DNA from: an uncultured Lentisphaerota bacterium
GTDB lineage: Bacteria; Verrucomicrobiota; Kiritimatiellia; RFP12; UBA1067
Assembly: GCA_900320225.1 (NCBI GenBank)
Contig: ONRL01000015.1
Span: forward strand, 24,383-88,382
Length of the DNA stretch: 64,000 bases
Direction: 5' to 3'
This document shows, piece by piece, positions 44,613 to 64,000 of the stretch (position 1 is its first letter; every line of letters starts with the position of its first letter). Under the pieces are notes generated by a model, which saw only the letters and a program-made list of their open reading frames with translations, searched no databases and had not been told where the DNA came from. Position numbers and translations under genes: made by a program.

Positions 44613-44624
44613 TTCCCCCGCGCG

Positions 44625-47422: not shown

Positions 47423-47466
47423 GGCGCGCCCCTCTAACCAGAACAGAGAGGCGCGCCTTTCTGTTC
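47423..47466 (+). terminator. Rho-independent terminator-like hairpin (GGCGCGCCcCTCT-loop-AGAGaGGCGCGCC + TTTCTGTT); orphan, not associated with an annotated gene
   Basis: GC-rich 13-bp stem followed by T-tract, 570 nt downstream of the nearest + strand CDS and just before GC content drops. Confidence 0.4.
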
Positions 47467-47481
47467 GCAAACGAGAGACGG

Positions 47482-48843: not shown

Positions 48844-50948
48844 AAAAGGAACGGATTGCATTTAAGACGCGTGCAAGATTGCTTTGCCAGCTTGGTGAGC
48901 AACTCATCAAGTCTGAAGACATTGCCTTATTGGAATTGATAAAGAATTCCTATGATGCGGATGCGACATATTGCAATGTGCTGATGGAGAACGTTGCGGA
49001 TCCGAAAAATGGACGCATTGTTATTGATGATGATGGTTGTGGAATGAGCGCAGAACGTATTCGCCATACTTGGTTGGAGATCGGCACGAACTTCAAGGAG
49101 AGCCTTGCGGCGGATGAAGCGACCAAGAGGACTCCGAAGTTCAAGCGGATGCGCCTGGGAGAAAAGGGGATTGGGCGTTTCGGTGTGCATCGACTCGGGC
49201 ATAAAATTGATGTATATAGCAAGTCTGCGGATTCGCGGCTGGAAGCGCATTTGGCTATTGATTGGCGAAGTGCTGAGAAAGCGGAAATGATTGAGGATGT
49301 GCCGGTTTCTCTCACGGAGGATATTCCGCATTATTTCAAGGGAAAGAAAACCGGAACGCTTATCGTCATTACCAATTTGAAGGGTGAATGGACGCGAAAG
49401 ATGGCGCGAGACGTTGCACGGGCTATTGCGACGCTTAATTCTCCATTTGAGGAACAGGGAGAGTTTGTTCCGACGCTGAAGTTCACGGGACAAAGAGGCG
49501 AGGGCAAGTGGATTGACGGCATTGTTACATTCGATGAGATTCGTGCTAAGAGTCTCGGGTCGTTCGAAATTATGCTGAGGGGGAATCGAATTAAGAGCTT
49601 TGAGTATCATTTCACGCCGTGGAAGGTTATGGACAAGCTTCAGCCCCGTATGGTGAAGTGGGACTCGAAACATACCGAAGCGCGTTTGATTACGGAGGAT
49701 GATGAAGAGATCGATTTGTCCGAGATCGGAGAGGTGAGTTTCAAGGGGCTTGTCTTTGATTTGGATACAAAGATCCTGAAGCTTGGAATCCAAGATGTTG
49801 TGGGCTTCAAGGGTTATCTTCAGGCCAATGGTGGTGTCCGAGTTTACCGCGATAATATGCGGGTTCTGAATTACGGAGAGCCGGATGACGATTGGCTCGA
49901 CTTGAATTTTCGGCGCGTGAACCAGCCGACGCGCAAGGTAAGCTCAAATGTAATCATTGCCGCAGTCGGCCTTTCGCGTGAAAGCAGTGGTGCGTTGCGG
50001 GAAAAAGCGAATCGCGAGGGCTTTCTGAAGAACGCAGCATTCATGAAGCTTCGGAATGCCATCTTGTACGCGCTCAGCAAAGTTGAGCTTGAACGCAGCG
50101 TTGATAAAGATAGTATTCGCGCGGCTTATGGGAAGAAGGCTGAGATTAAAAATCGTCATGTGACGATGGATGACTTGCGGGCGGATGTCGAGACTTACGT
50201 CAAGAACAAGGTTGCGCGGAAGAAGATGTTGCAATGTATCGACCGTGTAGAGGATCAGTTTGAGGAATTTGCCGATTCTTTGATCAAGAGTGCAGGGGCG
50301 GGCCTAAACTTGTCGATGGTCATCCATCAAATGGAGAAAATCATCAAGAACGTTAAGGCCATGCTACGCAAACGAGGGCACGAGTCCGATGTGGCAAAGC
50401 AAATCGATTCACTGGCATTGCTGATTGAAGGATACAGCATCCTCATCCGTGAGTCTGATCGCAAGGTGCGCAATCTCGATGAGATTGTTGAACAGTCTGT
50501 GTATAATGTCGGATTTAGGTTGTCTGCGCATAAGATTGATCTCGTGGATGCGTATAAAAAGCGTGGAAAATGTCTGGCCTTGTGTACGGAAAACCATGCC
50601 ATTAACGCAATGCTGAACCTTTTCGACAATTCGATTTGGTGGCTGGGCTATTCGAAAACCGAATCACCGAAGATTTATGTGGATATCGTTGAATCGAAGT
50701 TGTATAAGGATTCGATTGCGATTGTTGTTGCTGATAATGGGCCGGGGTTCTCACGGGATCCGGAGGAGATGATCAAGCCGTTTGTCACTTCCAAACCTAA
50801 TGGCATGGGCATTGGGTTGCATTTGACGAATGAGATAATGTTGTCTTTGGGCGGGAAACTCGATTTTCCTGCAGCGAAGGATGTTGGCGTTCCAAAGGCA
50901 TTTGCCAATGGCGCCATAGTTGCCTTGGTGTTTCCGAAGGAGGCCTAA
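48840..50948 (+). CDS. MORC-like GHKL-superfamily ATPase (HATPase_c_3) large protein, 702 aa
   Basis: Bergerat ATP-binding motifs LELIKNSYDADATYCNV...VIDDDGCGMS...GEKGIGRFG. GTGA overlap with dcm stop, so translationally coupled. C-terminal ~400 aa unassigned. Confidence 0.7.
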   Translation: MKKERIAFKTRARLLCQLGEQLIKSEDIALLELIKNSYDADATYCNVLMENVADPKNGRIVIDDDGCGMSAERIRHTWLEIGTNFKESLAADEATKRTPKFKRMRLGEKGIGRFGVHRLGHKIDVYSKSADSRLEAHLAIDWRSAEKAEMIEDVPVSLTEDIPHYFKGKKTGTLIVITNLKGEWTRKMARDVARAIATLNSPFEEQGEFVPTLKFTGQRGEGKWIDGIVTFDEIRAKSLGSFEIMLRGNRIKSFEYHFTPWKVMDKLQPRMVKWDSKHTEARLITEDDEEIDLSEIGEVSFKGLVFDLDTKILKLGIQDVVGFKGYLQANGGVRVYRDNMRVLNYGEPDDDWLDLNFRRVNQPTRKVSSNVIIAAVGLSRESSGALREKANREGFLKNAAFMKLRNAILYALSKVELERSVDKDSIRAAYGKKAEIKNRHVTMDDLRADVETYVKNKVARKKMLQCIDRVEDQFEEFADSLIKSAGAGLNLSMVIHQMEKIIKNVKAMLRKRGHESDVAKQIDSLALLIEGYSILIRESDRKVRNLDEIVEQSVYNVGFRLSAHKIDLVDAYKKRGKCLALCTENHAINAMLNLFDNSIWWLGYSKTESPKIYVDIVESKLYKDSIAIVVADNGPGFSRDPEEMIKPFVTSKPNGMGIGLHLTNEIMLSLGGKLDFPAAKDVGVPKAFANGAIVALVFPKEA

Positions 50949-50949
50949 G

Positions 50950-52260
50950 ATGGAATTGCCACAGAACGCGCGTGTTGCCATCGTCGATAATGTGTATGGC
51001 GAGGTGGAAGGGCTGATGGAGGCGCTTGCATCAAAAGGAGTGCCTGTTGTTTACTATCAGGGACAGAAGAAATTTCCAAAGCTGCCTTTGTCTGGCATTC
51101 GTTTATTGTTTCTTGATTTAGAGCTAGATGGCCTTGAGGGGCAGTCTGATAAGGCCAAAACGGCGACTGCGGCTGCAAATGCATCCACTTTAATCGCACC
51201 TGGTAATGGCCCGGTTGTGATTGTGCTTTGGACTAAGCACAGCGGTAAAGGTGTCGTGGACCGGTTTCGTGGTTATCTGAAGGGTCATATGACAAATCCT
51301 TACTTTGTTGTGTGCATGGATAAGGCGAGTTGTCAGGACAAGGCTGGTAAGTTTTCTACGGCACGAATCAAACGGAACCTTTCCCTGAAGTTGGCGGGGG
51401 CAAATGTTATTGGACTGCACACGACGTGGGAAAATGCGCTTTTCAAGGGCTCTGTGAAGTTGGCAGATCGTGTAGCTGCCATCGCGTCCGCAGATGAGGA
51501 CTGGCAGATCGTGATCTCACGTATGTTTTATAAGCTTTATAAGGCGAATAGCGAGAAGGTCGAGCTTAAAACGCTGAAAGAACAGTTCTTAAGTGCTTGT
51601 TCATTGTATGGTGCGGGGTTGCTGAATGCGATTAACTTCGAATTGTCTCGTTCTTCGTTGTCTTGCGGCAAGAGGTTTTCCTTGGTGAAGGAGAAACTTG
51701 CCGGAGACAGAGAGGCGAGGTTGAATGGATTGCTGAATGCTTTCCTTTATTACGACAAAGACCGAGCCGATCCCAATGTGCCAGGGACTGTATATGCGGT
51801 TCGTTCTGGTGGTGCGGACATTAAGTGTGGCATTGTGGCAGATTTCTTTGTGGAGAAATCGGCGCAGAAAGTGATTCGGAGCAAGGTCGCAAAAGATGTT
51901 CGTCTCTGTAAGATTGTTGTAACGCCATCTTGTGATTGCTCACAGAAAAAGGAGTTTCGATCTGGAGGTGGAAAAAAGTCGAAAACCTATGACCGAGTCG
52001 TATGGGCGCTGCTGGTGAATCGAGCCATGGGTGCGGAGTACATTGAACGTAAATACCGCAAGACCAGATGCTATTTGCTGGAGGGCTTTGAGTATGACGG
52101 CGGCATGTACGATCTGCTGATTGATCTCGACACATTGGGTTTTGAGGTCCTTGACCTCAAGAAACAAAGTCGCCTGTTTACTCTAACATCGATGGTGCTG
52201 GCCGATGTTCAGTCCAAATTGGCGAATCAGCTGAATCGCATAGGCATTGTATCGGTATGA
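50950..52260 (+). CDS. hypothetical protein with N-terminal receiver-like (CheY-fold-like) region; C-terminal part unassigned
   Basis: ARVAIVDNVYGEVEGLMEALASKGVPVVYY...IRLLFLDLELDG pattern of alternating beta/alpha with an acidic pocket. 1-nt gap to upstream stop; ATGA overlap with downstream start. Confidence 0.45.
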   Translation: MELPQNARVAIVDNVYGEVEGLMEALASKGVPVVYYQGQKKFPKLPLSGIRLLFLDLELDGLEGQSDKAKTATAAANASTLIAPGNGPVVIVLWTKHSGKGVVDRFRGYLKGHMTNPYFVVCMDKASCQDKAGKFSTARIKRNLSLKLAGANVIGLHTTWENALFKGSVKLADRVAAIASADEDWQIVISRMFYKLYKANSEKVELKTLKEQFLSACSLYGAGLLNAINFELSRSSLSCGKRFSLVKEKLAGDREARLNGLLNAFLYYDKDRADPNVPGTVYAVRSGGADIKCGIVADFFVEKSAQKVIRSKVAKDVRLCKIVVTPSCDCSQKKEFRSGGGKKSKTYDRVVWALLVNRAMGAEYIERKYRKTRCYLLEGFEYDGGMYDLLIDLDTLGFEVLDLKKQSRLFTLTSMVLADVQSKLANQLNRIGIVSV

Positions 52261-53132
52261 ATATGCGTTGTTGTCGATACATGAAGTTTGGTTACGCGAA
52301 TGCGTCTTTGAGGGATAACTTCTTCAGAGTTAGCGGTCCGCTGGATTTTAATGATCCATTCGAATGCAGAGGATGCTATATTCATTTTGATGAGGCGTTG
52401 CGAAAGTATGTTCATCAGAACTTTGAGAGATTGAGGTTTGAGTCTATACGTCGAACTAATTCAACGACGCCGGAACTTCAAGCAAGGTTTACGGAAGAGT
52501 TCCTGTTTAAGACATACTTTGATTCAGCATCCCGATCGCTTGACAGTTCTTGGATTAACGCTGTTAATGAAACGGTTTTGATGTTGTGCTTTGTCAAGGA
52601 GCGAGGGTTGAAGCCCACCTCTGACGTTTTGTTCTGGTCGCATTACGCGGATTCTGGCAAGGGTGTCCGTATTGTGTTTGACTTGCCCGAAAGACCACGG
52701 GGGGGCGTTTATTATATGAAGGAAGTTGAGTATTGTGAGAAGGTGCCAGCATTTGACTGTCGGAAGATGGATGCTTGGCTTCAAGGGAAAGAATTTCAGG
52801 ATTATTTGGAGCGTATTTCACATGTGAAGGGGAAGGCTTGGGAATATGAGAATGAAATCCGAATGATTATACCACGGCGCATTCCTGAGCAGATGAAGCG
52901 AGTGCCGTTTGCTCATTTGTGTCCTCGTGAGAAAGACGGGGTAACACATTATTTTGTGCGAATTAATTACGATGCGATTCGGCGCATAGATTTTGGACCG
53001 CATGTTGATTTGAAACAGGCAGTGCGGTTAATTGAAGACCTGAAGCACGAAAAAGGTACTGGGCACATAGCATTCTGGCAAGCAACGTTGGGCTCAGGAT
53101 CATACACGTACATTTATCAGAAAGTGGCATAA
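52257..53132 (+). CDS. DUF2971 family protein
   Basis: N-terminal MKFGYANASLRDNFFRVSGPLDFNDPFE matches the DUF2971 signature (...FNDPFE); overlaps upstream stop (ATGA). Confidence 0.6.
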   Translation: MNMRCCRYMKFGYANASLRDNFFRVSGPLDFNDPFECRGCYIHFDEALRKYVHQNFERLRFESIRRTNSTTPELQARFTEEFLFKTYFDSASRSLDSSWINAVNETVLMLCFVKERGLKPTSDVLFWSHYADSGKGVRIVFDLPERPRGGVYYMKEVEYCEKVPAFDCRKMDAWLQGKEFQDYLERISHVKGKAWEYENEIRMIIPRRIPEQMKRVPFAHLCPREKDGVTHYFVRINYDAIRRIDFGPHVDLKQAVRLIEDLKHEKGTGHIAFWQATLGSGSYTYIYQKVA

Positions 53133-53186
53133 GGAATGATAGGAGAGGTGAATCTGGCTCGTAAGGCTTGACTGTGAGTAGTTGAT

Positions 53187-53735
53187 ATGGCGATATGCAT
53201 CAATAAATTAAAATCCTCTCAGGTCCTTGACGACTGTCAAAGGTCGTTGGATTTGTTGGAGAATGTGCCGGATGGGGACAAGCAGTTGTTCCGCATCTAC
53301 TGGACATTCTGCTTGGTAGCGTTACGCAGTGTTGAAGATGCCTTGATAAAAAATGATGCAAAGAGGTATCCAGAAATGATGGCGCCGTTAAAAGAGAGGC
53401 ACAATCAGCTTATGGCGCTTAAAACAAAATACCCGGACAATATAAAGTACGAAGAGTGCGATAGTGACGATTATTTAATCTACCACCGTCTTATACGCGG
53501 TGAGCGTAATTCTGCGGTCCATGAAGCGGCTCAAGCTTATGTAGATGGTATGTGGTCTATGGTTGCTGATAAAGGCCTTGCCAATTGGGGTAATACTTAT
53601 CTGCCGATGTGGGATTTTGACAAATGGGGACTCGATGACTGTAGGGATTGGATGCAAAGAGGGATAGATTGGTGGAGAAAAGAGATAGAATCCATTGCGA
53701 CTAAAGCCATTGAAGCACAAGGGAAAGAAAAATGA
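53187..53735 (+). CDS. hypothetical protein, Trp-rich
   Basis: 182-aa ORF 55 nt downstream of the DUF2971 gene, same strand; no recognisable motifs. Confidence 0.4.
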   Translation: MAICINKLKSSQVLDDCQRSLDLLENVPDGDKQLFRIYWTFCLVALRSVEDALIKNDAKRYPEMMAPLKERHNQLMALKTKYPDNIKYEECDSDDYLIYHRLIRGERNSAVHEAAQAYVDGMWSMVADKGLANWGNTYLPMWDFDKWGLDDCRDWMQRGIDWWRKEIESIATKAIEAQGKEK

Positions 53736-54361
53736 TTTTCAGACTTGGAGAACTTTTTTGTGCCCCAGGAGGTTTGGCTTGGGGTGCCACGCATGCAAAC
53801 ATAGGTAATCCAGAATGGTGGATACAACATGCATGGGCGAATGATTATAGCGTGCGATATTGTTTGCATGGGCAATGCAACTTCCCAATGGAATATAAAT
53901 CGATAAATCGCGCATTGTGTTTGTGCGCTTGATTCGTATGGACGATTTTAAGCTGGTCAACACATCAGGGAGAGAGCGATGACCACGATAGAAGTAAATA
54001 CTATTAGGAATTATGCAGAGATGATACTTGGACATATTAAGGAGTCTAGGTGTAGGCACAAGAAAATATCGTGTAAGGCATTAAAGTTTTGGAGTGCGGC
54101 CATATACAACTTTGCCGAACAGAGTAGACGCTTTGAGAATCATCTTCCTATTGGACGTGAGGGGATAGAATTTATTTCGGAGCATTAATGATGAGTAACG
54201 GCTTGCATAACGGCGATAAAACTCAGGACGATTCTCTTGTTCTTCTGGATGAGGAATGGCCTTGTTACAGTGTGAAGTCTATCTTCAATGCGGTCATGGC
54301 GGTTTGGCTTGCGGAGCCGAGATGTTCCTTTGTTCTTCATCAGTGAATCGGAGGCACTTGG

Positions 54362-56485
54362 ATGATCAATAAGGCAGATTTCTCGGTATGGCTGTCAAGT
54401 GGCAACAAAGAGAACAGCGGCAAAGCCCGCAGTTATTTGACTGCGCTTAACGACATAGATCAAATCCTTCATTCACTCGTCAAGGAGTTTGACTCGCCAA
54501 GTGTTTTTGAGTTGCCAAAGCATTCGCTTGAGACACTTCGCGAATTCTTCATAAAGGAATCAAAGAATTCAGCATCGGTAATATTGGGGATGCAGGGACT
54601 TCATGGTAGTTCGTATCTCAAAAATCGCTTTTACTCCGCAAGTGTCAGCAAGCTGTTGGACTATCTATTAGAGAAGCAGGGAACAGAATCGATTCGTTTT
54701 TCTGGATTTCCAGATCACCTCTCCATTGCGCTGAGGGTCTTTGCCGAAAAGCGGTATGCGGCAGAATGGCAGGACAAGACGAGCAAGGATGGCTATCAGA
54801 ATATCTACGACATGGCAGCGATGACGCCGGAGCAGATTGCCGCAGGGTCGCTTGACGATTTCTACAATGATTTCCTGTTGAAGATCTGGGCGTTCAAGAA
54901 TGGCGGCAGTCGGCGATATGGACAGCTTGACGAGGCAGGTAGAAAAGCCTATCGGCAGTTCGTTGTTGATTTGAAGACGCAGCTCAAGAGCTTTGACTCC
55001 TACTTCCCGCCCAATACGCAATGTCCCGATGGCATGGGCGTGGGCGTGCTTACGGAGTTGATGATGCGCTTCTGGCCGAATTCGTGTTGCAACTACAACG
55101 CAAGTCTCATCCACGAGGCACTTGTTACGTTACACATGGCGGAAGGGGACTTCGTCTGGCCGAAAACGCCGTCCGTCTATCAGGATTTCATGGGCAAGTG
55201 TGCGACTATCCTGCTCAAGATGGAGCAGATGAAACTGCCGCGCCGTTCCGATCCCGGCAATGACGAGCCGCCGGACTACATCACCGTGAACGAGTTTCTG
55301 TGGTTCGTCCGCGAGTACAAGGATTTAATTCAGGAGGAAGTCATGAGCAAGAAGATGAAAACCGATGCGCCTACGAAGTATGACGAAGGCAAGCGCAAAA
55401 CACTCGCGTTCGATCCTAATTCAAAGGATGACGAACTTCTTCTGCGTCTGCTTGCCGCGCTTCGCGCCAAGCCGTTCGCCATCCTCGCCGGACACTCCGG
55501 CACTGGCAAGAGCCGCTATGTGAAGAAGCTTGCGTACATGACCTGCAACATGGACGAGCTGCGTAACGAAAAGCAGCTGCCGGGCAACTATCTTCTCCTT
55601 CAGGTCAAGCCCAACTGGCACGATTCCACCGAACTGCTTGGTTTCCGCAACGCGATGGACGGCGACCGCTACCAGAAGACCAAGCTTATCGAATTCCTTT
55701 TCCGTGCCTATCAGTTCAAGGACACGCCATTCTTCCTCTGCCTTGACGAGATGAACCTTGCGCCGGTTGAACAGTATTTTGCCGAGTTTTTGAGTTCGAT
55801 GGAGTCTGCGGAACCTGTTCCGCTTAATGACATCACCGTGAAGGACGACAATCTTTTCGATCTTGGTTGCGAATGGAAAGCCGCTTACGATTACTTGGCG
55901 GCGAACGGCTTCTCCATCCCGAAGAATCTGTTCATCGTCGGTACAGTCAACATGGACGAGACGACCAACCAGTTCTCGCGCAAGGTTCTTGACCGTGCCT
56001 TCACGATAGAGATGACGGATGTCGACTTTAAGAACTACGGACATGTCACCCAGCCGAGTTATGCCGACACCATCGAGGAAGAAAAGATACAGGCGCTTCT
56101 CAATGGGGAGAAGTTCGTGGATAAGCTTGATGCCGAGGATGTAGCTGAGGGCGCGCCTCTTGTCAAGGTACAGAAAGCCCTGGAGCCAACTGCGTTTGCG
56201 GTCGCATATCGCTTCGCAAACGAATACACGCTTCTGAAAAGGGCGATTGCGTGTTTCGACAAGGACAGTACGATGAAGCTGGACGCGCTTGACCAGGCCG
56301 TTCTAATGAAGATCCTGCCGCGTGTTGCGGGCGAAAAGGATTACATTGAGAAGGTCTATGGCAAGAACGATAACGAGGGTCTTCGGAAAGCGCTTGAGGG
56401 GAAGTCTGTCTCGCTTAAGAAAATTGCCGAGATCATGAAACGCGCCAATGACATGAACGCCCAGTACATCACGTTCTGGCCATGA
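54362..56485 (+). CDS. mcrB: McrB-like AAA+ GTPase subunit (type IV methyl-dependent restriction), with long N-terminal domain
   Basis: FAILAGHSGTGKSRYV (Walker A), FFLCLDEMNLAPVEQYFAEF (McrB-type Walker B), NLFIVGTVNMDETT (sensor). Confidence 0.7.
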   Translation: MINKADFSVWLSSGNKENSGKARSYLTALNDIDQILHSLVKEFDSPSVFELPKHSLETLREFFIKESKNSASVILGMQGLHGSSYLKNRFYSASVSKLLDYLLEKQGTESIRFSGFPDHLSIALRVFAEKRYAAEWQDKTSKDGYQNIYDMAAMTPEQIAAGSLDDFYNDFLLKIWAFKNGGSRRYGQLDEAGRKAYRQFVVDLKTQLKSFDSYFPPNTQCPDGMGVGVLTELMMRFWPNSCCNYNASLIHEALVTLHMAEGDFVWPKTPSVYQDFMGKCATILLKMEQMKLPRRSDPGNDEPPDYITVNEFLWFVREYKDLIQEEVMSKKMKTDAPTKYDEGKRKTLAFDPNSKDDELLLRLLAALRAKPFAILAGHSGTGKSRYVKKLAYMTCNMDELRNEKQLPGNYLLLQVKPNWHDSTELLGFRNAMDGDRYQKTKLIEFLFRAYQFKDTPFFLCLDEMNLAPVEQYFAEFLSSMESAEPVPLNDITVKDDNLFDLGCEWKAAYDYLAANGFSIPKNLFIVGTVNMDETTNQFSRKVLDRAFTIEMTDVDFKNYGHVTQPSYADTIEEEKIQALLNGEKFVDKLDAEDVAEGAPLVKVQKALEPTAFAVAYRFANEYTLLKRAIACFDKDSTMKLDALDQAVLMKILPRVAGEKDYIEKVYGKNDNEGLRKALEGKSVSLKKIAEIMKRANDMNAQYITFWP

Positions 56486-56504
56486 TCGGAGACTTCCTGC
56501 GGTA

Positions 56505-58589
56505 ATGTCTGAAACTGTCTACACATATACGCATGGCGATGTCTTTACGCTGAAGGTGATGGGCCGAAACGCCGGCCGATACGAGGCGTACTGCAAGCGC
56601 ATCGGCGTGGAAGAAGGCTCTGACGAGAGCCGTGTGGACATATCTTCTCCCAACGGAGTGGAGCAGATGGAGCCGCCCTTCTTCGAGACACGCTATTTCT
56701 TGCGGTGTGACTTCAAAGATGCGTCTATCCGCGACGCAGTGTTCTTCCATAAGATGGCCAGCGTTTCGGAGGCGTTCGACTTTGACGGCAAAACGCTCGT
56801 GGGTGTACTTGATTTCGTGAACGCTCCGGGCAAGTTCCACTTTGAGATAGTCTGGTATCGCGGCGGCGTTCGCGAATCGGCGGCATTTGACTGGATAGTT
56901 GTGTCTGAGAAGCTTAACGTCCAAAGTGATTACAAAGAAATCGTCACGACTATCGAGGAGAATGCGCCTGGGTTGGTGCGGGCGTTTCTTGCGAAGTCAA
57001 AGGGCGCGGCGGGGCTTATCCGTCGCGACGACACCAATGACGCAATTTGGGCGGATATTTTCAACGAGATCGGCGACCGTTATCAGAGAGCGTGCGAGTG
57101 GATCGTGAACAGGCCGCACCTCAAGTACATTTCGGAAGTCGAGTATCGGCGAGCAGGACTGGTCAAGCGATGGACGCCGGGCTTGGTCAACAGTTATGCG
57201 ACCATGGGCAAGGGGCGGCGAGCGGTTGCTCTTTTCAGGACGGAACACATATCGCCGCAGGTTGATACGGTAGAGAATAGGTTCGTCAAGTTCACCTTGC
57301 GGAGTGTCGTTGCAAGGTTGGAAAAATTCGCGTCTGTCTGTGAGGGGCACAAGACGGTCAGCGAGGTGTTCGTAAAGGACCTGCGGGCGCGGGCGGCGAG
57401 ACTTGCCAAGACGATGCGCAATCCTTTTTTCGTCGGCGTGGGACATTTCACGGGTTTGCGTCAAGAGAGCATGGTTCTGCAGCGGCGGCAGGGATATGCG
57501 GACATCTATGCGACATGGTTGATGCTCAAGCATACTCTCGATACAACGCAAACGGGTCTGGCAGTTGGACACAGGCCGATCAGCGCGCTCTACGAGTTCT
57601 GGTGTTTTCTGCGCATGGCAGATTTGCTGGAGAAGGACTTCGGATTTGGACGCCCGGAAGGTATGATAGACGGGGCTAAGGTCTATGACGACCTCTTCGA
57701 AGAACCGGACCCTGACAAGATTGACACCACGACGCTCTCTGCACTGACGTACAAGTTTCCCGAAAAAGATGGGGTTTCCATTAAACTACTGTATCAGCAG
57801 AACTACGGCAAGGAGACTGTCGATGGAGATTTGGCTTACTATAATCCGCAACGGCCTGACATTGTGCTAGTGATTGAACGCGGGAAGGATGTGTTCACTT
57901 ATCTGTTCGACGCCAAATACCGCATTGATGAGCGTGGTGGGAAGGATGCTTCCCCAGCTGAGCCGATCAACGACATGCATCGTTACAGAGATGCGATTTT
58001 GTATCGTTCACAAGAGGATGACCGTAAGTTGTCTCGGCAGATCGTTGGCGCGTATGTGCTCTATCCCGGCCGGCCTCTGCCACAGAGCTACAACTACGCG
58101 GAACTGATCAAAAACGAGAACATCGGCGCCATCCCTCTTCTGCCAGGCGAGGATGGCGGGAGCGCACTAAAGTCATTCATTGGCGAAATTCTCAGTAAGA
58201 AGACCCCGGAATCGCACCTTTCCGCCGACATCCCGACTCGCGGCACCACGGTGGTCGTCGGGAAGGACGAGGGCGTATTTCTTGAAAATGAAGTCGTGTA
58301 CGGGACATACGCGGCAGGGCAGCTTGATTGGATTCTTGAGAAGCACATGTACAATCTGCCGGTGGAAGAGTCTGAGAAGTTTGGCATCGTGGATATGGCG
58401 ACGGCCGAGCAGAAGAAAATTCTTTATCTTGTTGCTTTTCGTGGAACCGGTAGTCACCGTGTTTTCAGGCTTCTGCCCGGTGTGCGTAAAGTGACGCCGA
58501 ATGACTTGTGGAAAATGGGATATCCTAGGCAATGTCGCTATGACGAATACTGGTTGTTTAAGTTAGGCGAAGAACTAGGGCTAAGGTAG
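56505..58589 (+). CDS. mcrC: McrC-like partner nuclease (PD-(D/E)xK), enlarged 694-aa variant
   Basis: PD-(D/E)xK core RPDIVLVIE...LFDAKYR near C-terminus; 20-nt gap after McrB-like gene. Confidence 0.6.
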   Translation: MSETVYTYTHGDVFTLKVMGRNAGRYEAYCKRIGVEEGSDESRVDISSPNGVEQMEPPFFETRYFLRCDFKDASIRDAVFFHKMASVSEAFDFDGKTLVGVLDFVNAPGKFHFEIVWYRGGVRESAAFDWIVVSEKLNVQSDYKEIVTTIEENAPGLVRAFLAKSKGAAGLIRRDDTNDAIWADIFNEIGDRYQRACEWIVNRPHLKYISEVEYRRAGLVKRWTPGLVNSYATMGKGRRAVALFRTEHISPQVDTVENRFVKFTLRSVVARLEKFASVCEGHKTVSEVFVKDLRARAARLAKTMRNPFFVGVGHFTGLRQESMVLQRRQGYADIYATWLMLKHTLDTTQTGLAVGHRPISALYEFWCFLRMADLLEKDFGFGRPEGMIDGAKVYDDLFEEPDPDKIDTTTLSALTYKFPEKDGVSIKLLYQQNYGKETVDGDLAYYNPQRPDIVLVIERGKDVFTYLFDAKYRIDERGGKDASPAEPINDMHRYRDAILYRSQEDDRKLSRQIVGAYVLYPGRPLPQSYNYAELIKNENIGAIPLLPGEDGGSALKSFIGEILSKKTPESHLSADIPTRGTTVVVGKDEGVFLENEVVYGTYAAGQLDWILEKHMYNLPVEESEKFGIVDMATAEQKKILYLVAFRGTGSHRVFRLLPGVRKVTPNDLWKMGYPRQCRYDEYWLFKLGEELGLR

Positions 58590-58606
58590 TGGGAGATTGA
58601 GGCGCC

Positions 58607-58684
58607 ATGGGACTCGTCAAGACCAGAAGACTTGTGGCAATGCGGAAGCAGTTACGCCCCCTGTCAGGGTTGCAGCAAGAATGA
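58607..58684 (+). CDS. small ORF (25 aa, MGLVKTRRLVAMRKQLRPLSGLQQE), paralog of 61961-62104
   Basis: GGGAG RBS; first 15 residues conserved with the second copy despite synonymous DNA divergence. Confidence 0.35.
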   Translation: MGLVKTRRLVAMRKQLRPLSGLQQE

Positions 58685-58731
58685 GTATTTTCGTGGCAAA
58701 GAAGTAACATCTAACCTAACCCGGAGGCCTT

Positions 58732-60630
58732 ATGAAAATCATTTATACATACATTGCAGATTTCCCGCCTTTCAAGAATGCGGAAATGAATTTCGTATCA
58801 GATTATAGATGTAATTTCAATGGTGAGAAGTTAAGAATAAAACATTCGAAAGTCTTGCCCAAAGGGTTCTTTTCGCATGATGACCGATTGTGTGTGTCCG
58901 CAGTAGTGGGCCCAAATGGAGCGGGAAAGACTTCTCTCATCCGTTTCTTGAGATCACTCATGTATCCTGTGCAAAAGCAAGAATTCGTTCTTGTTTTGGA
59001 GGCAAAAGGAGATATAATTGTTTACTATAACTTAAACGGCGGAAGAATCCAAGTTGAGGGAGAGGGATGTAAAGTAAAATCCGTCAATAATCGTTACGAG
59101 AATACTGAATTTATGCAGGATGCCATTTCGACTTGCTTCAATGTTGTGTACTATTCGCCGCACTATTCGTTGTCTGTACCTTTCCGATTTACAAATGACG
59201 ATTTTGTAAACCTCTCTACGACATATCTTTTGAACAATACTATGGATGGTTCTTCTAGTCAGGCCAGATGTGTCAGTTCGTCAATCTTTATTGCAGAAGA
59301 ATTTTATCGTCTTGTCCGTTTCTATGAAGCATGTAAAGATATGTCTAATGTCGTTGAGCAAGTTCCGAAGGGTGTCGCATTCGTACCAGACACTCAAACA
59401 TTGGAATTTATTTTTCAATATTATTCTGAACTGCTTAATAAGGAGAAAGTTCGTATCAAGGAGATTCGTAAAGGTATTGTTGTTGGTGAAAGGGAACTTA
59501 CTAATAATGAAATGCAGCGTATAGAGACGATGCTGTCTTTTCTTGGATTTGATTTTGACGATGCCTTTATGTGTGTGTTCCAGTGTTTTGTGGCGATTAT
59601 TTGGCAAAGGAAGATATTCAATGATAAGTTTCTTAATGGAAAGGAATACGGATGTCTTTTGCTTGATTTTTGTGCGTCATTAATTGATTCAGACAATATG
59701 GACAAAAGAACCATTCGTAGTAAAGTCATTAACTTTTTGAAATTGAACAAGCCAGAACAAATTGGGAAGCTAGAATATTTGAATGAGGATGCAAGTAGTA
59801 TTAAGGAAGAAAATCCTTTATTCGCATTTTTTAAAATCCTTAGTGACTTAACATCTCACAGGGGTGGCGAAGGAGAAGTTTACCTGCAAATGCCGTGGAA
59901 CAAATTAATGAAGAACCTAGAGTTTGTAAAAGAACTGTATGGGTGCACGACTGCGATCGGGGCATTTGTTGAGTGGCGTTTTGATCCACCAATGTCATCT
60001 GGTCAATATACTTTGTATTCTTTCTATGCTCGCCTATACGAGTATTTCGTTAATATTAGAGACTGTGTTGCTGGGTACGACGGAAGTGACTTCTCGCATG
60101 AATGGGCTTTTCACATGGAGTCTGGCTGGATTGTGATACTGGATGAAGTAGAGGTGACTCTACACCCAGAATGGCAACGGACGATAGTATCGAATGTTTT
60201 GCATGTGTTTAAGGAATTCTTTAAGGGGTTTAATGTACACCTAATCTTTGCAACGCATTCGCCGATATTGCTGTCGGATGTGCCGGCTGGCAATGTGGTA
60301 TTACTTGATAAAGGCAGGGTGATTAACGGACAAACTAAAGACGGAGAGGAATTCAAGCCTTTCGGCTTTGGTGCGAACATTTATGACTTGTATCGCCATT
60401 CGTTCTTTCTAAAGAATGGCGCCGTAGGGTTATTCGCGCGAAAGAAGATAGATGATGTGGTAAGAAAAATATGCGAGTTACTTGAACCATCGAAGAAGAG
60501 CAAAAAGGAACCCGAAGATAAGTTTAATTATGATGAAGCGAACAAGATTTCCAATTTGGTTGCAGATCCTATTGTCAGGAAATATCTCAAGTCTGTAATA
60601 CCATTAGCGAAGGAACGGGCAAATGCGTAA
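58732..60630 (+). CDS. ABC/SMC-like AAA ATPase (AAA_15/AAA_21 type), Septu PtuA-like
   Basis: Walker A VVGPNGAGKTSL, Walker B/D-loop IVILDEVEVTLHPEWQ, H-loop ATHSP; low GC. Confidence 0.6.
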   Translation: MKIIYTYIADFPPFKNAEMNFVSDYRCNFNGEKLRIKHSKVLPKGFFSHDDRLCVSAVVGPNGAGKTSLIRFLRSLMYPVQKQEFVLVLEAKGDIIVYYNLNGGRIQVEGEGCKVKSVNNRYENTEFMQDAISTCFNVVYYSPHYSLSVPFRFTNDDFVNLSTTYLLNNTMDGSSSQARCVSSSIFIAEEFYRLVRFYEACKDMSNVVEQVPKGVAFVPDTQTLEFIFQYYSELLNKEKVRIKEIRKGIVVGERELTNNEMQRIETMLSFLGFDFDDAFMCVFQCFVAIIWQRKIFNDKFLNGKEYGCLLLDFCASLIDSDNMDKRTIRSKVINFLKLNKPEQIGKLEYLNEDASSIKEENPLFAFFKILSDLTSHRGGEGEVYLQMPWNKLMKNLEFVKELYGCTTAIGAFVEWRFDPPMSSGQYTLYSFYARLYEYFVNIRDCVAGYDGSDFSHEWAFHMESGWIVILDEVEVTLHPEWQRTIVSNVLHVFKEFFKGFNVHLIFATHSPILLSDVPAGNVVLLDKGRVINGQTKDGEEFKPFGFGANIYDLYRHSFFLKNGAVGLFARKKIDDVVRKICELLEPSKKSKKEPEDKFNYDEANKISNLVADPIVRKYLKSVIPLAKERANA

Positions 60631-61786
60631 ACTCGTGATAAATGATGACGATCTAGAGCTGCATAAGGACACCTATTCAACCCCAATCGAGGATATCCTT
60701 GGTTTGCTTGCCAAAGGGGATACTGTGAAGAAAGTTGGGAAAGCGGAAGACGGGAAACTGACAGACATCGATTGGCTATCGGCCAAAACCCCGGAGGAAC
60801 AAGATTTCTATAAAGGAATTCTTGAAAAGTACCAGGAAAAGAACTTTCTTACGACGGAGTTGGACGGCCTAGTTAAATTATGCAAAGAGTTTGACAAGCT
60901 GTACGAACCTTTTCAGAAGGAAAAGCTCGTAGAAATCAAAAATAATTTAAAGGAGATATTTAACTATGAAAAATTTGGAGCAGGACAAAAGCTGGTGGTA
61001 AAAACGATAAATAATGTTCAGTGTTATTCATGGACCAATTGCACCGAATCTTGGAGTGCTTGGCATTTTATCAAACACCTGAATGTCAGAACGTGTTGTT
61101 ATTGTAACGCCGAAACTATTTTCGCATTGTTGCTAAACCAGCCATGTCCTGGAGTTGAAGAAAAACGTTCAAATAGTAAGGCGAAGAAAGAAGATTACAA
61201 GAGGTCTGCTCTTGACCATTATATTGGTCATTCAGAGTATCCGGCTTTTGGATTGTCATTGTATAACCTTGTGCCAGCTTGCACTAGATGCAACACGAAT
61301 ATTCGAGGTGCAAAAGTCTTGGATTATCAAAGCAATATTCATCCATACGAAGAGTCCTTTGATGATTTCTTCAGGTTTAAATACTTCGTGAAGAAGACAG
61401 GCGTGGATTTCCAAGCGTTAACCGAAGACGATATAGGTCTAATTGTTTCGCAACTTGATAAGGACGGTCACATTATAAACATAGATAAAAGAGGAATGAA
61501 CACAGCGAAGTTCTTTCATTTGAAAGAAGTGTATAATCAACTCCATCGTAGCGAAGCAATTGACACGATTCGAAGATATACATTGATTCCAGAAGCACGG
61601 CGAAAAGAACTTGAACAACACTATCCAAATATTGGGCGGGTTGTCCTAGAGCGAATGCTTTGGGGAGTGGATTGTGATCGTAATAATATCAATCAATACC
61701 GCCTAGGTAAGTTGACGCTTGATTTGTTGGAACAGTTGGGTGCGACTTCGCAAGACGAACTTGATCGGATTTGGCAAAAATGGTGA
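60623..61786 (+). CDS. HNH endonuclease domain protein, Septu PtuB-like partner
   Basis: RTCCYCN...DHYIGHSEYP...YNLVPACTRCN (HNH/His-Me finger with two Cys pairs); 8-nt overlap with the ATPase gene. Confidence 0.55.
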   Translation: MRKLVINDDDLELHKDTYSTPIEDILGLLAKGDTVKKVGKAEDGKLTDIDWLSAKTPEEQDFYKGILEKYQEKNFLTTELDGLVKLCKEFDKLYEPFQKEKLVEIKNNLKEIFNYEKFGAGQKLVVKTINNVQCYSWTNCTESWSAWHFIKHLNVRTCCYCNAETIFALLLNQPCPGVEEKRSNSKAKKEDYKRSALDHYIGHSEYPAFGLSLYNLVPACTRCNTNIRGAKVLDYQSNIHPYEESFDDFFRFKYFVKKTGVDFQALTEDDIGLIVSQLDKDGHIINIDKRGMNTAKFFHLKEVYNQLHRSEAIDTIRRYTLIPEARRKELEQHYPNIGRVVLERMLWGVDCDRNNINQYRLGKLTLDLLEQLGATSQDELDRIWQKW

Positions 61787-61960
61787 GCTAACAGGTACGA
61801 GTCGCAAGCCCCATTGGTGGAGGAGCCCGCGAGGGGTGATCTCATTGGTGAGTAGGAGTGGTGGATTAGTCATGGCCATGCAACAGAAAGGCAACGAGAG
61901 ACGCAGAGGTAGCCCTCGTTGATATGGTAACACTGACACAGTAACGCGAGAGGTGAGATC

Positions 61961-62104
61961 ATGGGACTCGTGAAAACAAGAAGGCTGGCGGCGATGCAGA
62001 AGCAGCAGCGCGCGAAGGCGGGGATGAAGCCGCCGGCACCAAAACCTACGCGAATGAATGGTTGCAGGAACGCAACGAATTTCGAGTCAATGAAACGCGG
62101 TTAG
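61961..62104 (+). CDS. small ORF (47 aa, MGLVKTRRLAAMQKQQRAKAGMKPPAPKPTRMNGCRNATNFESMKRG), paralog of 58607-58684
   Basis: GAGAGGTGAG RBS; sits 13 nt upstream of the DUF262-HNH gene. Confidence 0.35.
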   Translation: MGLVKTRRLAAMQKQQRAKAGMKPPAPKPTRMNGCRNATNFESMKRG

Positions 62105-62117
62105 AAGGAGCAATGGC

Positions 62118-63458
62118 ATGAATCAAACTGTTCAACCGATCAATTCTCGTCCGATGACAAGGGTAGAATTCAATACGTTCACCATTCGCACGTTGGTCGG
62201 ATGGTACGAGCGGGGTTTGCTGAATCTTGAACCGGAGTTTCAGAGAAAGTCGGTCTGGAAGAAGCAGCAGCGATCTAGGTTGATGAATTCCATTCTGCAT
62301 GGCTATCCACTTCCGAATGTGGCGATCTACAAACGGTATGATGAGAAGCTCCACTGTGTCCGTTACGATGTGATTGACGGCAAGCAGCGCCTAGAGTCCA
62401 TCTTGCTTTTTCTTGGAAAACTTAGAGGCGAAGATTCGCGTTTTGAGGCGGCGTTTACAGATTGGCGTGACGGAAGGGAATATACCGTCAAGCAGTCTTG
62501 GCGAGACATGTGCCCCAAAAACCAGGGTCAAATCATGAGATTCAAAATACCGGCCGTCTGGGTTCAGGGTGAGTTGCACGAGATACGTGAGATGTTTGTG
62601 CGAATCAATTCAACCGGCAAAGCACTGACTCATCAGGAAGTCCGCAACGCGAAGTACTTCAGTTCTGAATTCCTTCAGCGCATGATTCCCCTTGCCAGAC
62701 AGCTAAAGCGCAACTTCTTAGAAATGGGTGTCCTTTCTGAGAGTGAGATTCTTCGGATGAAGGATGTGGAATTTTGTTCGGAGCTGGTCCTTTCAGTCCT
62801 GCACGGAAACGTTCTCGACAAGAAACGCGCGCTTGATCAGTCAATGACGGATGGGTTCGTTGACATGCGGAGACTTCCAAAGGCGATACGAGACGTGAAG
62901 GCGACGATCCGGTATCTGGCCAAGCTGCTGCCCGACATTCGCGCAACGCGGTTCAAGAAACTTGCGGACTTCTACACGCTCGTGGTCCTGTTCGCGCGTT
63001 ACTTGCGAGAGGGGAAGACGCTGCAGAATGCTAAGGCGAAACGCGAGGCGGGATATCTGCTTGAGCGGTTCGGCGTTCTGGCGGACAAGGCGTACAAGTC
63101 GATCAGCGAATTCGACCGAGAGGCGGAGATTGATCCAAATGCGTTGACGTACATCCAGACAGTTCGCGAGGGCGGCGACACTGCGGCACACCGTCGCGAG
63201 CGAGAGAGGATTGTGGAAAACATCTTGGAGAATGTCTTTGACCAGAAAGACCGCCATCGCACGTTCACAGAAGTTCAGCGGCGAATCATCTGGGCGAATA
63301 CGAAGCGCAAGAAGTGTTACAGGTGCGGGCGCGAGTTGAAATGGTCGAACTTCGAGATCGACCATGTCTATCCTTACAGCAAGGGCGGCAAGACAACGAT
63401 AGAGAACAGTGCAATCATCTGCAAGCGCTGCAATTGCAAGAAAGGCGCAAAGGTTTGA
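62118..63458 (+). CDS. DUF262 (ParB/GmrS-like NTPase) + C-terminal HNH/DUF1524-like nuclease: GmrSD/BrxU-family type IV restriction enzyme
   Basis: LEPEFQRKSVW and DGKQRLESI (DUF262 motifs); CYRCGRELKWSNFEIDHVYPYSKGGKTTIENSAIICKRCN (HNH). Confidence 0.7.
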   Translation: MNQTVQPINSRPMTRVEFNTFTIRTLVGWYERGLLNLEPEFQRKSVWKKQQRSRLMNSILHGYPLPNVAIYKRYDEKLHCVRYDVIDGKQRLESILLFLGKLRGEDSRFEAAFTDWRDGREYTVKQSWRDMCPKNQGQIMRFKIPAVWVQGELHEIREMFVRINSTGKALTHQEVRNAKYFSSEFLQRMIPLARQLKRNFLEMGVLSESEILRMKDVEFCSELVLSVLHGNVLDKKRALDQSMTDGFVDMRRLPKAIRDVKATIRYLAKLLPDIRATRFKKLADFYTLVVLFARYLREGKTLQNAKAKREAGYLLERFGVLADKAYKSISEFDREAEIDPNALTYIQTVREGGDTAAHRRERERIVENILENVFDQKDRHRTFTEVQRRIIWANTKRKKCYRCGRELKWSNFEIDHVYPYSKGGKTTIENSAIICKRCNCKKGAKV

Positions 63459-63515
63459 TGCTAGCACTCGGCTTCTGCCCCGGACGGGGGACGGATTGTA
63501 AAAGGAGGGAATAGG

Positions 63516-64000
63516 ATGAAGGTAATTCTGAGCAGAAAAGGTTTTGACAGTGTCAATGGTAAGATGCCAAGTGCCATAATGCCGAACGGCGATGTCGTTT
63601 CTTTCCCGATTCCTTCAGGTGACAAGACCACATTTGACGACTTACGATATAGGGATGTCTCTTATAAGCAAATATTGGATTCTCTTGTACAAAAGAAATC
63701 TGGATGCAGGGATATTCCTTGGCGACATTGTCACATTGATCCGGATCTGGATAAGACGCGTTGGAAGAAAACACCCCATCATAATTGGAAGCCGGCTTTC
63801 GGCCCGTCATGGAACGTATGGCACTATCTGAAAGAGACGGTTGGGATTCAAAAGAATGATGTATTTCTTTTCTTTGGGACATTTCACTTTTTAACCCAGA
63901 AGGCGCCTAGAGGTTTCGAGTACGCCGCTCGAACCGGCGATTTCTTTCATGACTCGGACTTGCATCTCATCTGGGGATATTTGCAAGTCGGGAACATCAT
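63516..64000 (+). CDS. partial ORF (5' part only, runs off window); N-terminus MKVILSRKGFDSVNGKMPSAIMPNG resembles the Nmad3 (nucleotide-modification-associated domain 3) family, tentative
   Basis: AAAGGAGGG RBS 7 nt upstream; open for 161 codons to window end; family assignment from memory of the Nmad3 N-terminal signature, unverified. Confidence 0.35.
   Translation, partial: MKVILSRKGFDSVNGKMPSAIMPNGDVVSFPIPSGDKTTFDDLRYRDVSYKQILDSLVQKKSGCRDIPWRHCHIDPDLDKTRWKKTPHHNWKPAFGPSWNVWHYLKETVGIQKNDVFLFFGTFHFLTQKAPRGFEYAARTGDFFHDSDLHLIWGYLQVGNI

What the first reader, a model, noticed from the sequence alone, without database searches (positions are those of the whole stretch)
62118..64000. DUF262-HNH (GmrSD/BrxU-like) enzyme followed by a partial Nmad3-like gene at the window edge
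A type IV-like modification-dependent nuclease is directly followed, after 57 nt with a strong RBS, by an ORF whose N-terminus resembles Nmad3 proteins predicted to participate in DNA base-modification systems. The island therefore continues beyond the window and may contain a DNA hypermodification module alongside enzymes that attack modified DNA.
Basis: inference. Interest (0 to 1): 0.55.

Follow-up and report, generated by a model that had tools for sequence, protein, structure and literature searches.

The report
GmrSD-like nuclease with hitchhiking Nmad3 gene
At the edge of the window, a defence island in a rumen Kiritimatiellae bacterium carries an ordinary BrxU/GmrSD-like DNA-cutting enzyme co-transcribed with an uncharacterised 'Nmad3' gene, but the sequence beyond the window holds no DNA-hypermodification pathway.

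Summary
Window 62118-63458 encodes a 446-aa DUF262 (GmrSD_N) + HNH protein. After 57 nt and an AGGAGG site, an ORF starts at 63516 whose 161 in-window residues match Pfam Nmad3 (E 2.9e-33).

I recovered the downstream sequence from metagenome contigs, one of them identical to the last 10 kb of the window. Nmad3 is a complete 275-aa gene. It is followed by an unknown 160-aa ORF, AbiEi/AbiEii and Azaca. There is no Nmad2/4/5, YcaO, kinase or glycosyltransferase, so the hypermodification idea is not supported.

The nuclease's best structural match is BrxU, and all its catalytic motifs are intact. Nmad3 is a large, cellular, unstudied, enzyme-like family. Its recurrent partners, by adjacency and fusion, are Nmad2 and Macro.

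The DUF262-HNH/Nmad3 pairing is lineage-specific. Only 1 of 71 other DUF262-HNH loci has Nmad3, and the closest Nmad3 relatives sit beside other defence genes. Within this lineage the pair does travel as one cassette, bounded by an island-specific ~100-nt repeat.

Verdict: a new member of a known nuclease kind plus a defence-island passenger of unknown chemistry. Interest is modest.

The parts
58606..58676 (+). Upstream copy of the island-specific direct repeat, lying between the McrC-like gene and PDC-M62A. It marks a module boundary.
   Evidence: Found by the repeat finder (family D2). The pattern search gives 2 matches in the window against 0.01 expected.
61934..62104 (+). Copy of the ~100-nt island repeat just upstream of the nuclease gene. 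It holds a promoter-like -35/-10 (61933-61962) and a conserved mini-ORF (61961-62104, MGLVKTRRLAAMQKQQRAKAGMK...). The mini-ORF's TAG stop is 13 nt before the nuclease ATG.
   Evidence: Blastn self-matches, the repeat alignment, the mini-ORF translations with all changes in the first nine codons synonymous, and a promoter-like site at L003 9816-9845, which is window 61933-61962.
62118..63458 (+). DUF262-HNH gene, 446 aa: a single-chain GmrSD/BrxU-like putative type IV (modification-dependent) restriction nuclease.
   Evidence: Pfam, the PADLOC NsnA / PD-T4-2_A hits on the DUF262 part, the AF2 model with Foldseek best hit BrxU, and invariant motifs across 30 homologues.
62211..62660 (+). DUF262 / ParB-like NTPase-sensor domain (residues 32-181), carrying the QRxxxW (Q42 R43 W47) and DGKQR (D87-R91) motifs.
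   Evidence: Pfam GmrSD_N at E 3.2e-25, invariant columns, and the BrxU N-terminus match by HMM at E 5.8e-6.
63315..63455 (+). HNH (His-Me finger) nuclease domain (residues 400-446): C400xxC403, D415-H416, N430, C435xxC438, N439.
   Evidence: Pfam HNH_5/HNH, matches to 4h9d and the Cas9 HNH domain, and invariant columns.
63459..63515 (+). 57-nt spacer with the ribosome-binding site AGGAGG (63503-63508). It contains no terminator-like site and no copy of the island repeat.
   Evidence: Sequence read, the terminator scan on the identical L003 stretch, and the same 57-nt spacing in L110.
63516..64000 (+). 5' part (codons 1-161 of 275) of an Nmad3-family gene. The full gene ends 343 nt beyond the window (L003 11399-12226).
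   Evidence: Pfam Nmad3 at E 2.9e-33, the full-length ORF in L001-L008, and exact identity of L003 to the window.

Best explanation
The locus is a two-gene cassette in a horizontally acquired defence island of a Kiritimatiellae bacterium.

Gene 1 is a self-sufficient, single-chain GmrSD/BrxU-type nuclease. By analogy with GmrSD, BrxU and SspE (inferred, not shown here), its N-terminal ParB-like DUF262 domain binds and hydrolyses NTP and senses modified foreign DNA. That would then license the C-terminal HNH domain to cut.

Gene 2 is a complete 275-aa Nmad3 protein. It is an enzyme-like protein with no significant match to any solved structure and no experimental characterisation. Its evolutionarily robust partners elsewhere are Nmad2 and Macro domains, which points (inferred) to chemistry on a nucleotide or ADP-ribose-type adduct rather than a multi-step DNA hypermodification pathway.

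In this lineage Nmad3 has been captured behind the nuclease and is very probably co-transcribed with it. Even so, the two genes are functionally separable: each family normally occurs without the other. No hypermodification module lies beyond the window.
For: Identity of both genes.

Downstream content. Continuity with the window.

Co-transcription:
- The spacer is 57 nt with a ribosome-binding site and no terminator-like site.
- The first terminator-like hairpin lies after the 160-aa ORF, followed by a strong promoter-like site before AbiEi.
- The ~100-nt island repeat separates every module (McrBC-like | PDC-M62AB | this pair | ORF160 | AbiE | ...) but never lies between the nuclease and Nmad3.

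Cassette behaviour:
- The same pair with the same spacer occurs in a different context, with FtsK plus a Ser/Thr kinase upstream and DUF1016 downstream.
- The DNA homology block runs from 13 nt before the nuclease ATG to the repeat after Nmad3.

Separability:
- Only 1 of 71 metagenome DUF262-HNH loci with at least 250 nt downstream has Nmad3.
- Homologues at 87%, 70% and 64% identity lack it.
- Nmad3 relatives at 77-55% identity sit after HARE-HTH-T5orf172, after BrxL plus a 69-aa ORF, inside an efflux operon, or after DUF4379/SLFN-helicase genes.

Native partners of Nmad3:
- Nmad2 lies immediately upstream in 26 of 58 same-strand neighbours, and Macro in 5.
- Nmad2-Nmad3 and Nmad3-Macro fusion proteins exist.

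Cellular rather than phage origin: 547 or more species genomes carry it, against 9 of 2.9 million viral contigs and none of 50,697 phage records.

Both genes are under purifying selection, with dN/dS of 0.06-0.18.
Against: - The pair is kept together across a recombination event. Between L003 and L110 the first two-thirds of the nuclease gene is 72-88% identical, while its 3' third plus Nmad3 is 91-100% identical. That could reflect selection for the linkage.
- Stand-alone Nmad3 also sits directly behind a GmrSD_N+GmrSD_C gene (L011, 34-nt gap), a GIY-YIG-DUF4357 gene (L076) and a HARE-HTH-T5orf172 gene (L094). This hints at a recurrent link to sensor-nucleases.
- The biochemical role of Nmad3 is entirely inferred. 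The PUA-like (EVE/ASCH) resemblance is not statistically significant (best E 0.36-0.56).
- Modification dependence of the nuclease is assumed from relatives, not shown.
Confidence: 0.6

Rival explanations
1. The two genes form a genuine two-component restriction system. Nmad3 would be an accessory to the nuclease, acting as a reader, eraser or processor of modified bases or nucleotides that widens or gates what the DUF262-HNH enzyme attacks. This would resemble EVE/SRA/PUA-like readers fused to HNH nucleases in other type IV enzymes.
For: - The operon-like layout has no terminator and no island repeat between the genes.
- The pair is preserved in a second genomic context.
- The HNH-encoding 3' third and Nmad3 are co-inherited across a recombination breakpoint.
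- Independent juxtapositions occur with GmrSD (L011), GIY-YIG-DUF4357 (L076) and HARE-HTH-T5orf172 (L094).
- The top-ranked, though non-significant, fold matches are EVE/ASCH/DUF3850 domains in two separate libraries.
Against: - 70 of 71 other DUF262-HNH loci lack Nmad3, including an 87%-identical allele where the island repeat follows the nuclease directly.
- Most Nmad3 genes have no nuclease neighbour.
- The fold resemblance is below significance.
- No nuclease-Nmad3 fusion appeared among the ten long family members scanned.
Confidence: 0.2
2. Nmad3 is an independent one-gene, or toxin-like, defence or conflict effector whose activity is normally countered or completed by Nmad2 or Macro, in the style of DarT/DarG. 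Here it is simply parked next to an unrelated nuclease.
For: - Nmad2-Nmad3 and Macro-Nmad3 pairs are tightly coupled, with 4-nt overlaps or 3-9-nt gaps, and fusion proteins exist.
- Nmad2-Nmad3 pairs are scattered among unrelated housekeeping genes, like small mobile modules.
- Six of the seven distinct contexts of the window-like clade are defence loci.
- Nmad2 belongs to an experimentally validated defence system, NTTI, in PMC13092281.
Against: - The window clade has no Nmad2 or Macro nearby, so if Nmad3 were toxic it would be unguarded.
- No experimental data exist for Nmad3.
- Nmad3 matches no PADLOC model.
Confidence: 0.15
3. One reading: Nmad3 is the first gene of a DNA hypermodification module that modifies host or element DNA, sitting next to enzymes that attack modified DNA.
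For: The Pfam family name and its predicted role. A C5-cytosine methylase lies in the same island at window 47482-48843.
Against: - About 7 kb downstream and about 18 kb upstream hold no Nmad2/4/5, YcaO, aGPT-Pplase, kinase or glycosyltransferase.
- Nmad3 is absent from 50,697 phage genomes, where hypermodification pathways are found.
- Its usual neighbours are not modification pathways.
Confidence: 0.05

Closest known systems
BrxU / GmrSD family type IV restriction enzymes (E. coli CT596 GmrSD, Eco94GmrSD, Escherichia fergusonii BrxU; PDB 7p9k)
   Same: - N-terminal DUF262/ParB-like domain with QRxxxW and a DGQQR-type motif (here DGKQR).
- A helical middle region and a C-terminal His-Me finger nuclease with a D-H-x-x-P motif and two Asn residues 9 apart.
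- A single-chain protein that resides in a defence island.
- BrxU is the best structural match (family definition from PMC4619093 and PMC11322646).
   Different: - The C-terminal domain scores as canonical zinc-ribbon HNH (PF01844/PF14279), not DUF1524/GmrSD_C.
- At 446 aa it is shorter than the usual 580-620 aa.
- The substrate is unknown.
- It is co-transcribed with an Nmad3 gene, which is not a feature of the family.
SspE and Menshen NsnA / PD-T4-2_A (other DUF262-sensor defence proteins)
   Same: The DUF262 sensor/NTPase domain (PADLOC NsnA E 1e-30, PD-T4-2_A E 8e-19, both on the N-terminal part only; SspE 6jiv fold match E 8.6e-3).
   Different: - There is no NsnB/NsnC-type partner and no Ssp modification genes.
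- The upstream ATPase/HNH pair is a separate PDC-M62 module, set off by the island repeat and absent from the second context.
Nmad2-Nmad3 and Macro-Nmad3 gene pairs or fusions (Pfam PF18753/PF18754; uncharacterised)
   Same: The same Nmad3 family with all invariant residues retained, as the second gene of a tight two-gene unit.
   Different: The upstream partner here is a DUF262-HNH nuclease instead of Nmad2 or Macro. The window-like clade (50% identity or more) is found in defence islands without either partner.
Reader-nuclease type IV enzymes with PUA-like domains (EVE-HNH, SRA-HNH, ASCH fusions)
   Same: This is a possible analogy only: a PUA-like modified-base pocket working with an HNH nuclease. 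EVE/ASCH/DUF3850 domains top the fold-search lists.
   Different: The fold matches are not significant (E above 0.3, TM 0.2 or less). Nmad3 is a separate 275-aa protein with many invariant polar residues suggestive of catalysis. No fusion to a nuclease was seen.

Membership tests
GmrSD/BrxU family (type IV restriction) | N-terminal DUF262 (GmrS) domain with the DGQQR-type NTPase motif | tested here: met
   Pfam GmrSD_N at E 3.2e-25, 89.9 bits against a cut-off of 33.2. D87-G-K-Q-R91 and Q42-R43...W47 are invariant in 30 homologues. The motif reads DGKQR rather than DGQQR.
GmrSD/BrxU family (type IV restriction) | C-terminal DUF1524 (GmrD) His-Me finger domain with the (E/D)HxxP motif | tested here: inconclusive
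   There is no Pfam GmrSD_C/DUF1524 hit; the C-terminus scores as HNH_5/HNH instead. At motif level, I-D415-H416-V-Y-P and N430/N439 (9 apart) match the GmrD motifs described in PMC4619093. The superfamily is the same but the Pfam family differs.
GmrSD/BrxU family (type IV restriction) | Overall fold similar to a solved family member | tested here: met
   Foldseek against the PDB: BrxU 7p9k_A at E 1.7e-5, probability 1.00; SspE 6jiv at E 8.6e-3. TM-scores are low (about 0.2) because domain orientations differ.
GmrSD/BrxU family (type IV restriction) | NTP-stimulated cleavage of modified (for example glc-hmC or 5mC) DNA only | not testable with these tools
   This needs enzyme assays or phage challenge.
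Nmad3 (Pfam PF18754) | Sequence match above the curated threshold with the family's conserved motifs | tested here: met
   The in-window fragment scores 116 bits against a cut-off of 27. The full-length cluster representative P0001, 98% identical to the window protein, scores 137 bits. Invariant residues R7 K8 D11, P31-I-P33, C72-H-x-D-P-D77, W174-H-P-H177, R208/T211, R237/N239 and W253-Q-E255 are all present.
DNA hypermodification module (Nmad2/4/5, kinase, aGPT-Pplase, YcaO, glycosyltransferase partners) | Partner biosynthetic genes adjacent to Nmad3 | tested here: not met
   Downstream lie ORF160, AbiEi/AbiEii, 78-aa and 71-aa ORFs and ZacA/ZacB. Upstream lie PDC-M62, a McrBC-like pair, PDC-S31 and a C5-methylase.
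Menshen (NsnABC) | NsnA (DUF262+ParBDB) with an adjacent NsnB ABC-ATPase/DUF3696 and an NsnC effector | tested here: not met
   The NsnA model matches only the DUF262 part. The neighbouring ATPase is PDC-M62A, paired with PDC-M62B, separated by the island repeat and absent in L110.
Integron gene-cassette array (considered for the island repeat) | attC-type imperfect palindromes at cassette 3' ends | tested here: not met
   The repeat copies do not fold consistently (z from -0.3 to -2.5, no common hairpin). There is no Rfam match. The repeat instead carries a promoter-like site and a mini-ORF with a coding-type substitution pattern. I did not search for an integrase.

The most novel reading that the evidence does not exclude
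Nmad3 is the constant catalytic core of a family of small conflict modules with swappable upstream partners: Nmad2, Macro, or sensor-nucleases such as GmrSD, DUF262-HNH, HARE-HTH-T5orf172 and GIY-YIG-DUF4357. On this reading, the Kiritimatiellae island holds a previously undescribed two-component modification-dependent restriction system. A reader or eraser enzyme that may be PUA-like would cooperate with a BrxU-like nuclease, delivered as one cassette whose boundaries are set by a leader-ORF-bearing repeat.
Probability: 0.15. Interest if true: 0.65.

Novelty: new member of a known kind. Interest (0 to 1): 0.35.

Why it matters
The result corrects an attractive but unsupported reading: no hypermodification pathway sits next to this type IV enzyme.

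It also leaves three concrete leads.
1. Nmad3 is a large family (about 2,300 clusters at 50% identity). It gives a confident structure model with no significant PDB match, has many invariant polar residues and has no experimental data. In this clade it lives almost only in defence islands, so it is a reasonable candidate for a new defence-related enzyme.
2. The DUF262 + canonical-HNH architecture is very common (over 1,300 clusters at 90% identity), yet I found no experimental characterisation of it.
3. The module-punctuating repeat with a conserved mini-ORF offers a handle on how defence cassettes are shuffled and expressed in PVC-group bacteria.

Tried and rejected
- **Sequence searches for Nmad3.** A profile search against the PDB gave nothing meaningful. 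Relaxed Pfam scans of 115 members gave no second family. PADLOC and NCBIfam have no model for Nmad3 or ORF160.
- **Literature.** No paper in the library mentions Nmad3 or PF18754 in a relevant sense. The 2013 paper I recalled as the family's source (Iyer et al., Nucleic Acids Res.) is not held. DefensePredictor (PMC13092281) lists Nmad2 but not Nmad3 in the supplementary text that is held.
- **Phage origin of Nmad3: rejected.** There are 0 phage records and 9 viral contigs.
- **Menshen or PDC-M62 membership of the nuclease: rejected**.
- **Island repeat as an integron attC site or a known RNA: rejected.** There is no consistent fold and no Rfam match. The repeat is also absent from viral contigs.
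- **ORF160 as a third member of the cassette: rejected.** It is absent in L110 and is set off by a partial repeat.
- **Structure-based checks I could not do.** I could not map the invariant Nmad3 residues onto the model, because model coordinates are not exposed. A nuclease-Nmad3 complex could not be predicted either.
Full report
**1. The observation**

The + strand ORF at 62118-63458 encodes 446 aa. Pfam finds GmrSD_N/DUF262 (E 3.2e-25, residues 32-181) and a C-terminal HNH domain (HNH_5 E 7e-14, HNH E 1.7e-12, residues 400-446). The stop codon is at 63456-63458 and the next ATG at 63516. That leaves 57 nt, with AGGAGG 7 nt before the start. The ORF runs off the window after 161 codons. It matches Pfam Nmad3 at E 2.9e-33, 116 bits against a cut-off of 27, over profile positions 1-142 of 247.

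**2. Getting the missing sequence**

An exact-protein look-up of the nuclease found 18 contigs. L003 (ENA ERZ919349 scaffold_4516) contains the last 10 kb of the window base for base, so it serves as the continuation. There Nmad3 is a complete 275-aa gene (L003 11399-12226). Downstream come:
- a 160-aa ORF with no match in Pfam, PADLOC or NCBIfam;
- AbiEi/AbiEii;
- two small ORFs;
- in the longer sister contig L001, Azaca ZacA and a split ZacB.

Upstream, inside the window, lie a HipA-like kinase, a DUF4062/HATPase_c_4 protein, a DrmMII-like C5-methylase with a HATPase partner, PDC-S31, a McrBC-like pair (PDC-M26-like) and PDC-M62A/B. GC content falls from about 65% to 42-53% from roughly 46 kb onward. 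PurL in the high-GC part is closest to Kiritimatiellae MAG proteins. This is therefore a horizontally acquired defence island in a Kiritimatiellae genome. Nothing in it resembles a hypermodification pathway.

**3. The nuclease**

Across 30 homologues the QRxxxW motif (Q42, R43, W47), the DGKQR motif (D87-R91), the zinc-ribbon cysteines (C400, C403, C435) and the HNH residues D415, H416, N430 and N439 are invariant. A profile search of the PDB hits the BrxU N-terminus and the Cas9 and Gme HNH domains.

An AlphaFold2 model (pLDDT 84) finds BrxU as its best PDB match (E 1.7e-5, probability 1.00). SspE, ParB/Noc and the Gme HNH nickase follow.

The family is large: 1,324 clusters at E of 1e-10 or better, mostly 430-450 aa with the same two domains. 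The protein is GmrSD/BrxU-like, but with a canonical HNH domain in place of Pfam DUF1524. At motif level the (D)HxxP and N...N signatures described for GmrD (PMC4619093) are present. Modification dependence is inferred from relatives only.

**4. Nmad3**

The family has 2,311 clusters at 50% identity (E of 0.001 or better). Almost all are stand-alone proteins of 260-290 aa. Across 115 members, 25 positions are invariant and another 50 are at least 90% conserved, and many of these are polar. They include R7-K8-D11, C72-H73-x-D75-P-D77, W-H-P-H (174-177), R208/T211, R237/N239 and W-Q-E (253-255). This pattern reads as an enzyme.

The AlphaFold2 model is very confident (pLDDT 93.9, pTM 0.92), yet it has no significant match in the PDB or in BFVD. 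In both libraries the top-ranked weak hits are PUA-like domains (EVE, ASCH, DUF3850) at E 0.36-1.5. I treat that as a lead, not a result.

No solved relative exists by sequence. No second Pfam family appears. RefSeq annotates its homologues as 'hypothetical protein'. I found no paper on the family.

Nmad3 is cellular rather than viral. Relatives occur in at least 547 species genomes, against 9 of 2.9 million viral contigs and none of 50,697 phage records.

**5. What Nmad3 normally travels with**

I analysed 73 species loci.
- The gene immediately upstream on the same strand is Nmad2 in 26, often with a 4-nt overlap. It is a Macro-domain protein in 5, with 3-9-nt gaps.
- Nmad2-Nmad3 and Nmad3-Macro fusion proteins exist, so these links are functional.
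- The wider surroundings of Nmad2-Nmad3 pairs are unrelated housekeeping genes, as expected for a small self-contained mobile module.
- Nmad2, but not Nmad3, appears in an experimentally validated defence system in PMC13092281.

The clade nearest the window protein (50% identity or more) lacks both partners. It sits after HARE-HTH-T5orf172 (77% identity), after BrxL plus a 69-aa ORF (64% and 58%), inside an efflux operon (65%), after a DUF4379/SLFN-helicase/NUDIX/HNH_2 cluster (55%), and after a GmrSD_N+GmrSD_C gene (51%). Six of its seven distinct contexts, counting the window's own, are defence loci.

**6. Is the nuclease-Nmad3 pairing functional?**

For:
- No terminator-like site lies in the spacer. 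The first one follows ORF160, and a strong promoter-like site precedes AbiEi.
- A ~100-nt direct repeat separates every module of the island but is absent between the two genes.
- The pair recurs with the same 57-nt spacer in a different context, L110, where FtsK and a Ser/Thr kinase lie upstream and DUF1016 downstream.
- Between L003 and L110 the nuclease has synonymous divergence of 0.49, while Nmad3 has 0.05.
- The identity profile places a recombination breakpoint inside the nuclease gene near window 62997. The HNH-encoding third and Nmad3 are therefore inherited together, while the sensor part is swapped.

Against:
- An 87%-identical allele (L117) has the island repeat directly after its stop codon and no Nmad3.
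- Homologues at 70% and 64% identity lack Nmad3.
- Only 1 of 71 metagenome loci with enough downstream sequence has it.

I conclude that the two genes form one expression and mobility cassette in this lineage, but neither family depends on the other. A real functional partnership remains possible, at about 0.2.

**7. The repeat**

Its core is a promoter-like TTGACA...TGnTGTCAT, then a GAGAGGTGA ribosome-binding site, then a mini-ORF beginning MGLVKTRRLAAM(Q/R)KQQRAKAGMK. Across 11 distinct copies the first nine codons vary only at synonymous sites.

That points either to a translated leader or to diverged remnants of one gene's 5' end left behind by successive insertions. The repeat does not fold like an attC site, matches no Rfam family and is absent from viral contigs. 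I could not resolve what it does. It is useful here as an independent marker of module boundaries.

**8. Verdict**

The hypermodification inference is not supported.

The nuclease is a new member of a known kind. Nmad3 is an uncharacterised passenger that lives in defence islands, and its true partners elsewhere are Nmad2 and Macro.

Interest is modest at 0.35. The most novel reading not excluded is a new two-component, Nmad3-assisted type IV system, with probability about 0.15.

Noticed in passing
window 58606-58676 and 61934-62104; L003 12232-12277, 12816-12927, 14482-14599, 14750-14807; L110 8229-8324, 9686-9776; L117 2827-2921: A ~100-nt direct repeat punctuates every defence module of the island. 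It carries a promoter-like site, a ribosome-binding site and a mini-ORF (MGLVKTRRLAAM.KQQRAKAGMK). The first nine codons of the mini-ORF vary only synonymously across 11 copies. The repeat is not attC-like, has no Rfam match and is absent from viral contigs. It may be a translated leader or a scar of serial insertion at one gene's 5' end.
   Followed up: partly
window about 62118-62997 compared with 62997-64000 (L003 10001-10880 compared with 10880-12226): The DUF262-HNH alleles are mosaic. Against L110, the first two-thirds (the sensor part) are 72-88% identical, while the HNH third plus Nmad3 are 91-100% identical. Synonymous divergence is 0.49 for the nuclease and 0.05 for Nmad3. This implies recombinational swapping of the sensor region.
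   Followed up: yes
window 44623-44783 and 46904-47161: A second, unrelated pair of direct repeats flanks the DUF4062/HATPase_c_4/HTH gene (44960-46855). It consists of a GC-rich segment plus a CCAACC-rich tract, as if that gene were an inserted cassette.
   Followed up: no
window about 46000-64000: GC content drops from about 65% to 42-53%, marking the defence island as horizontally acquired. The high-GC part encodes housekeeping genes closest to Kiritimatiellae MAGs.
   Followed up: partly
window 54362-58589 and 58732-61786: There is a McrBC-like pair: an AAA_5 ATPase that hits PDC-M26A, then a DUF2357+PDDEXK_7 protein. It is followed by a PDC-M62 A/B pair, an AAA_15/21 ATPase plus a PtuB-like HNH protein. 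In sister contigs L001, L002 and L004 the 707-aa ATPase is replaced by a 913-aa protein preceded by two C5-methylase genes.
   Followed up: partly
L001 13167-14509 and 15692-18652 (beyond the window): AbiEi/AbiEii, then Azaca ZacA, then ZacB split into two ORFs (308 aa and 269 aa). ZacB may be frameshifted.
   Followed up: no
window 15249-19301: The PurL (FGAM synthase) ORF aligns to relatives over only about 75% of its length. Its 100%-identical cluster representative lacks the GATase domain PF13507. A frameshift or a split gene is possible.
   Followed up: no
L091 5775-6822 and L109 5771-6822: In two BREX loci a conserved 68-69-aa cysteine-rich ORF (...EEDLL.KIEEFKAAGCKLFG) sits between brxL and an Nmad3 gene, with 16-23-nt gaps. 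It may be a small partner protein.
   Followed up: no
L003 14778-14892: One copy of the island repeat carries a 66-nt insertion (TATCCGCCCCTTGCGGGGGTTCGCG...) inside the mini-ORF.
   Followed up: no
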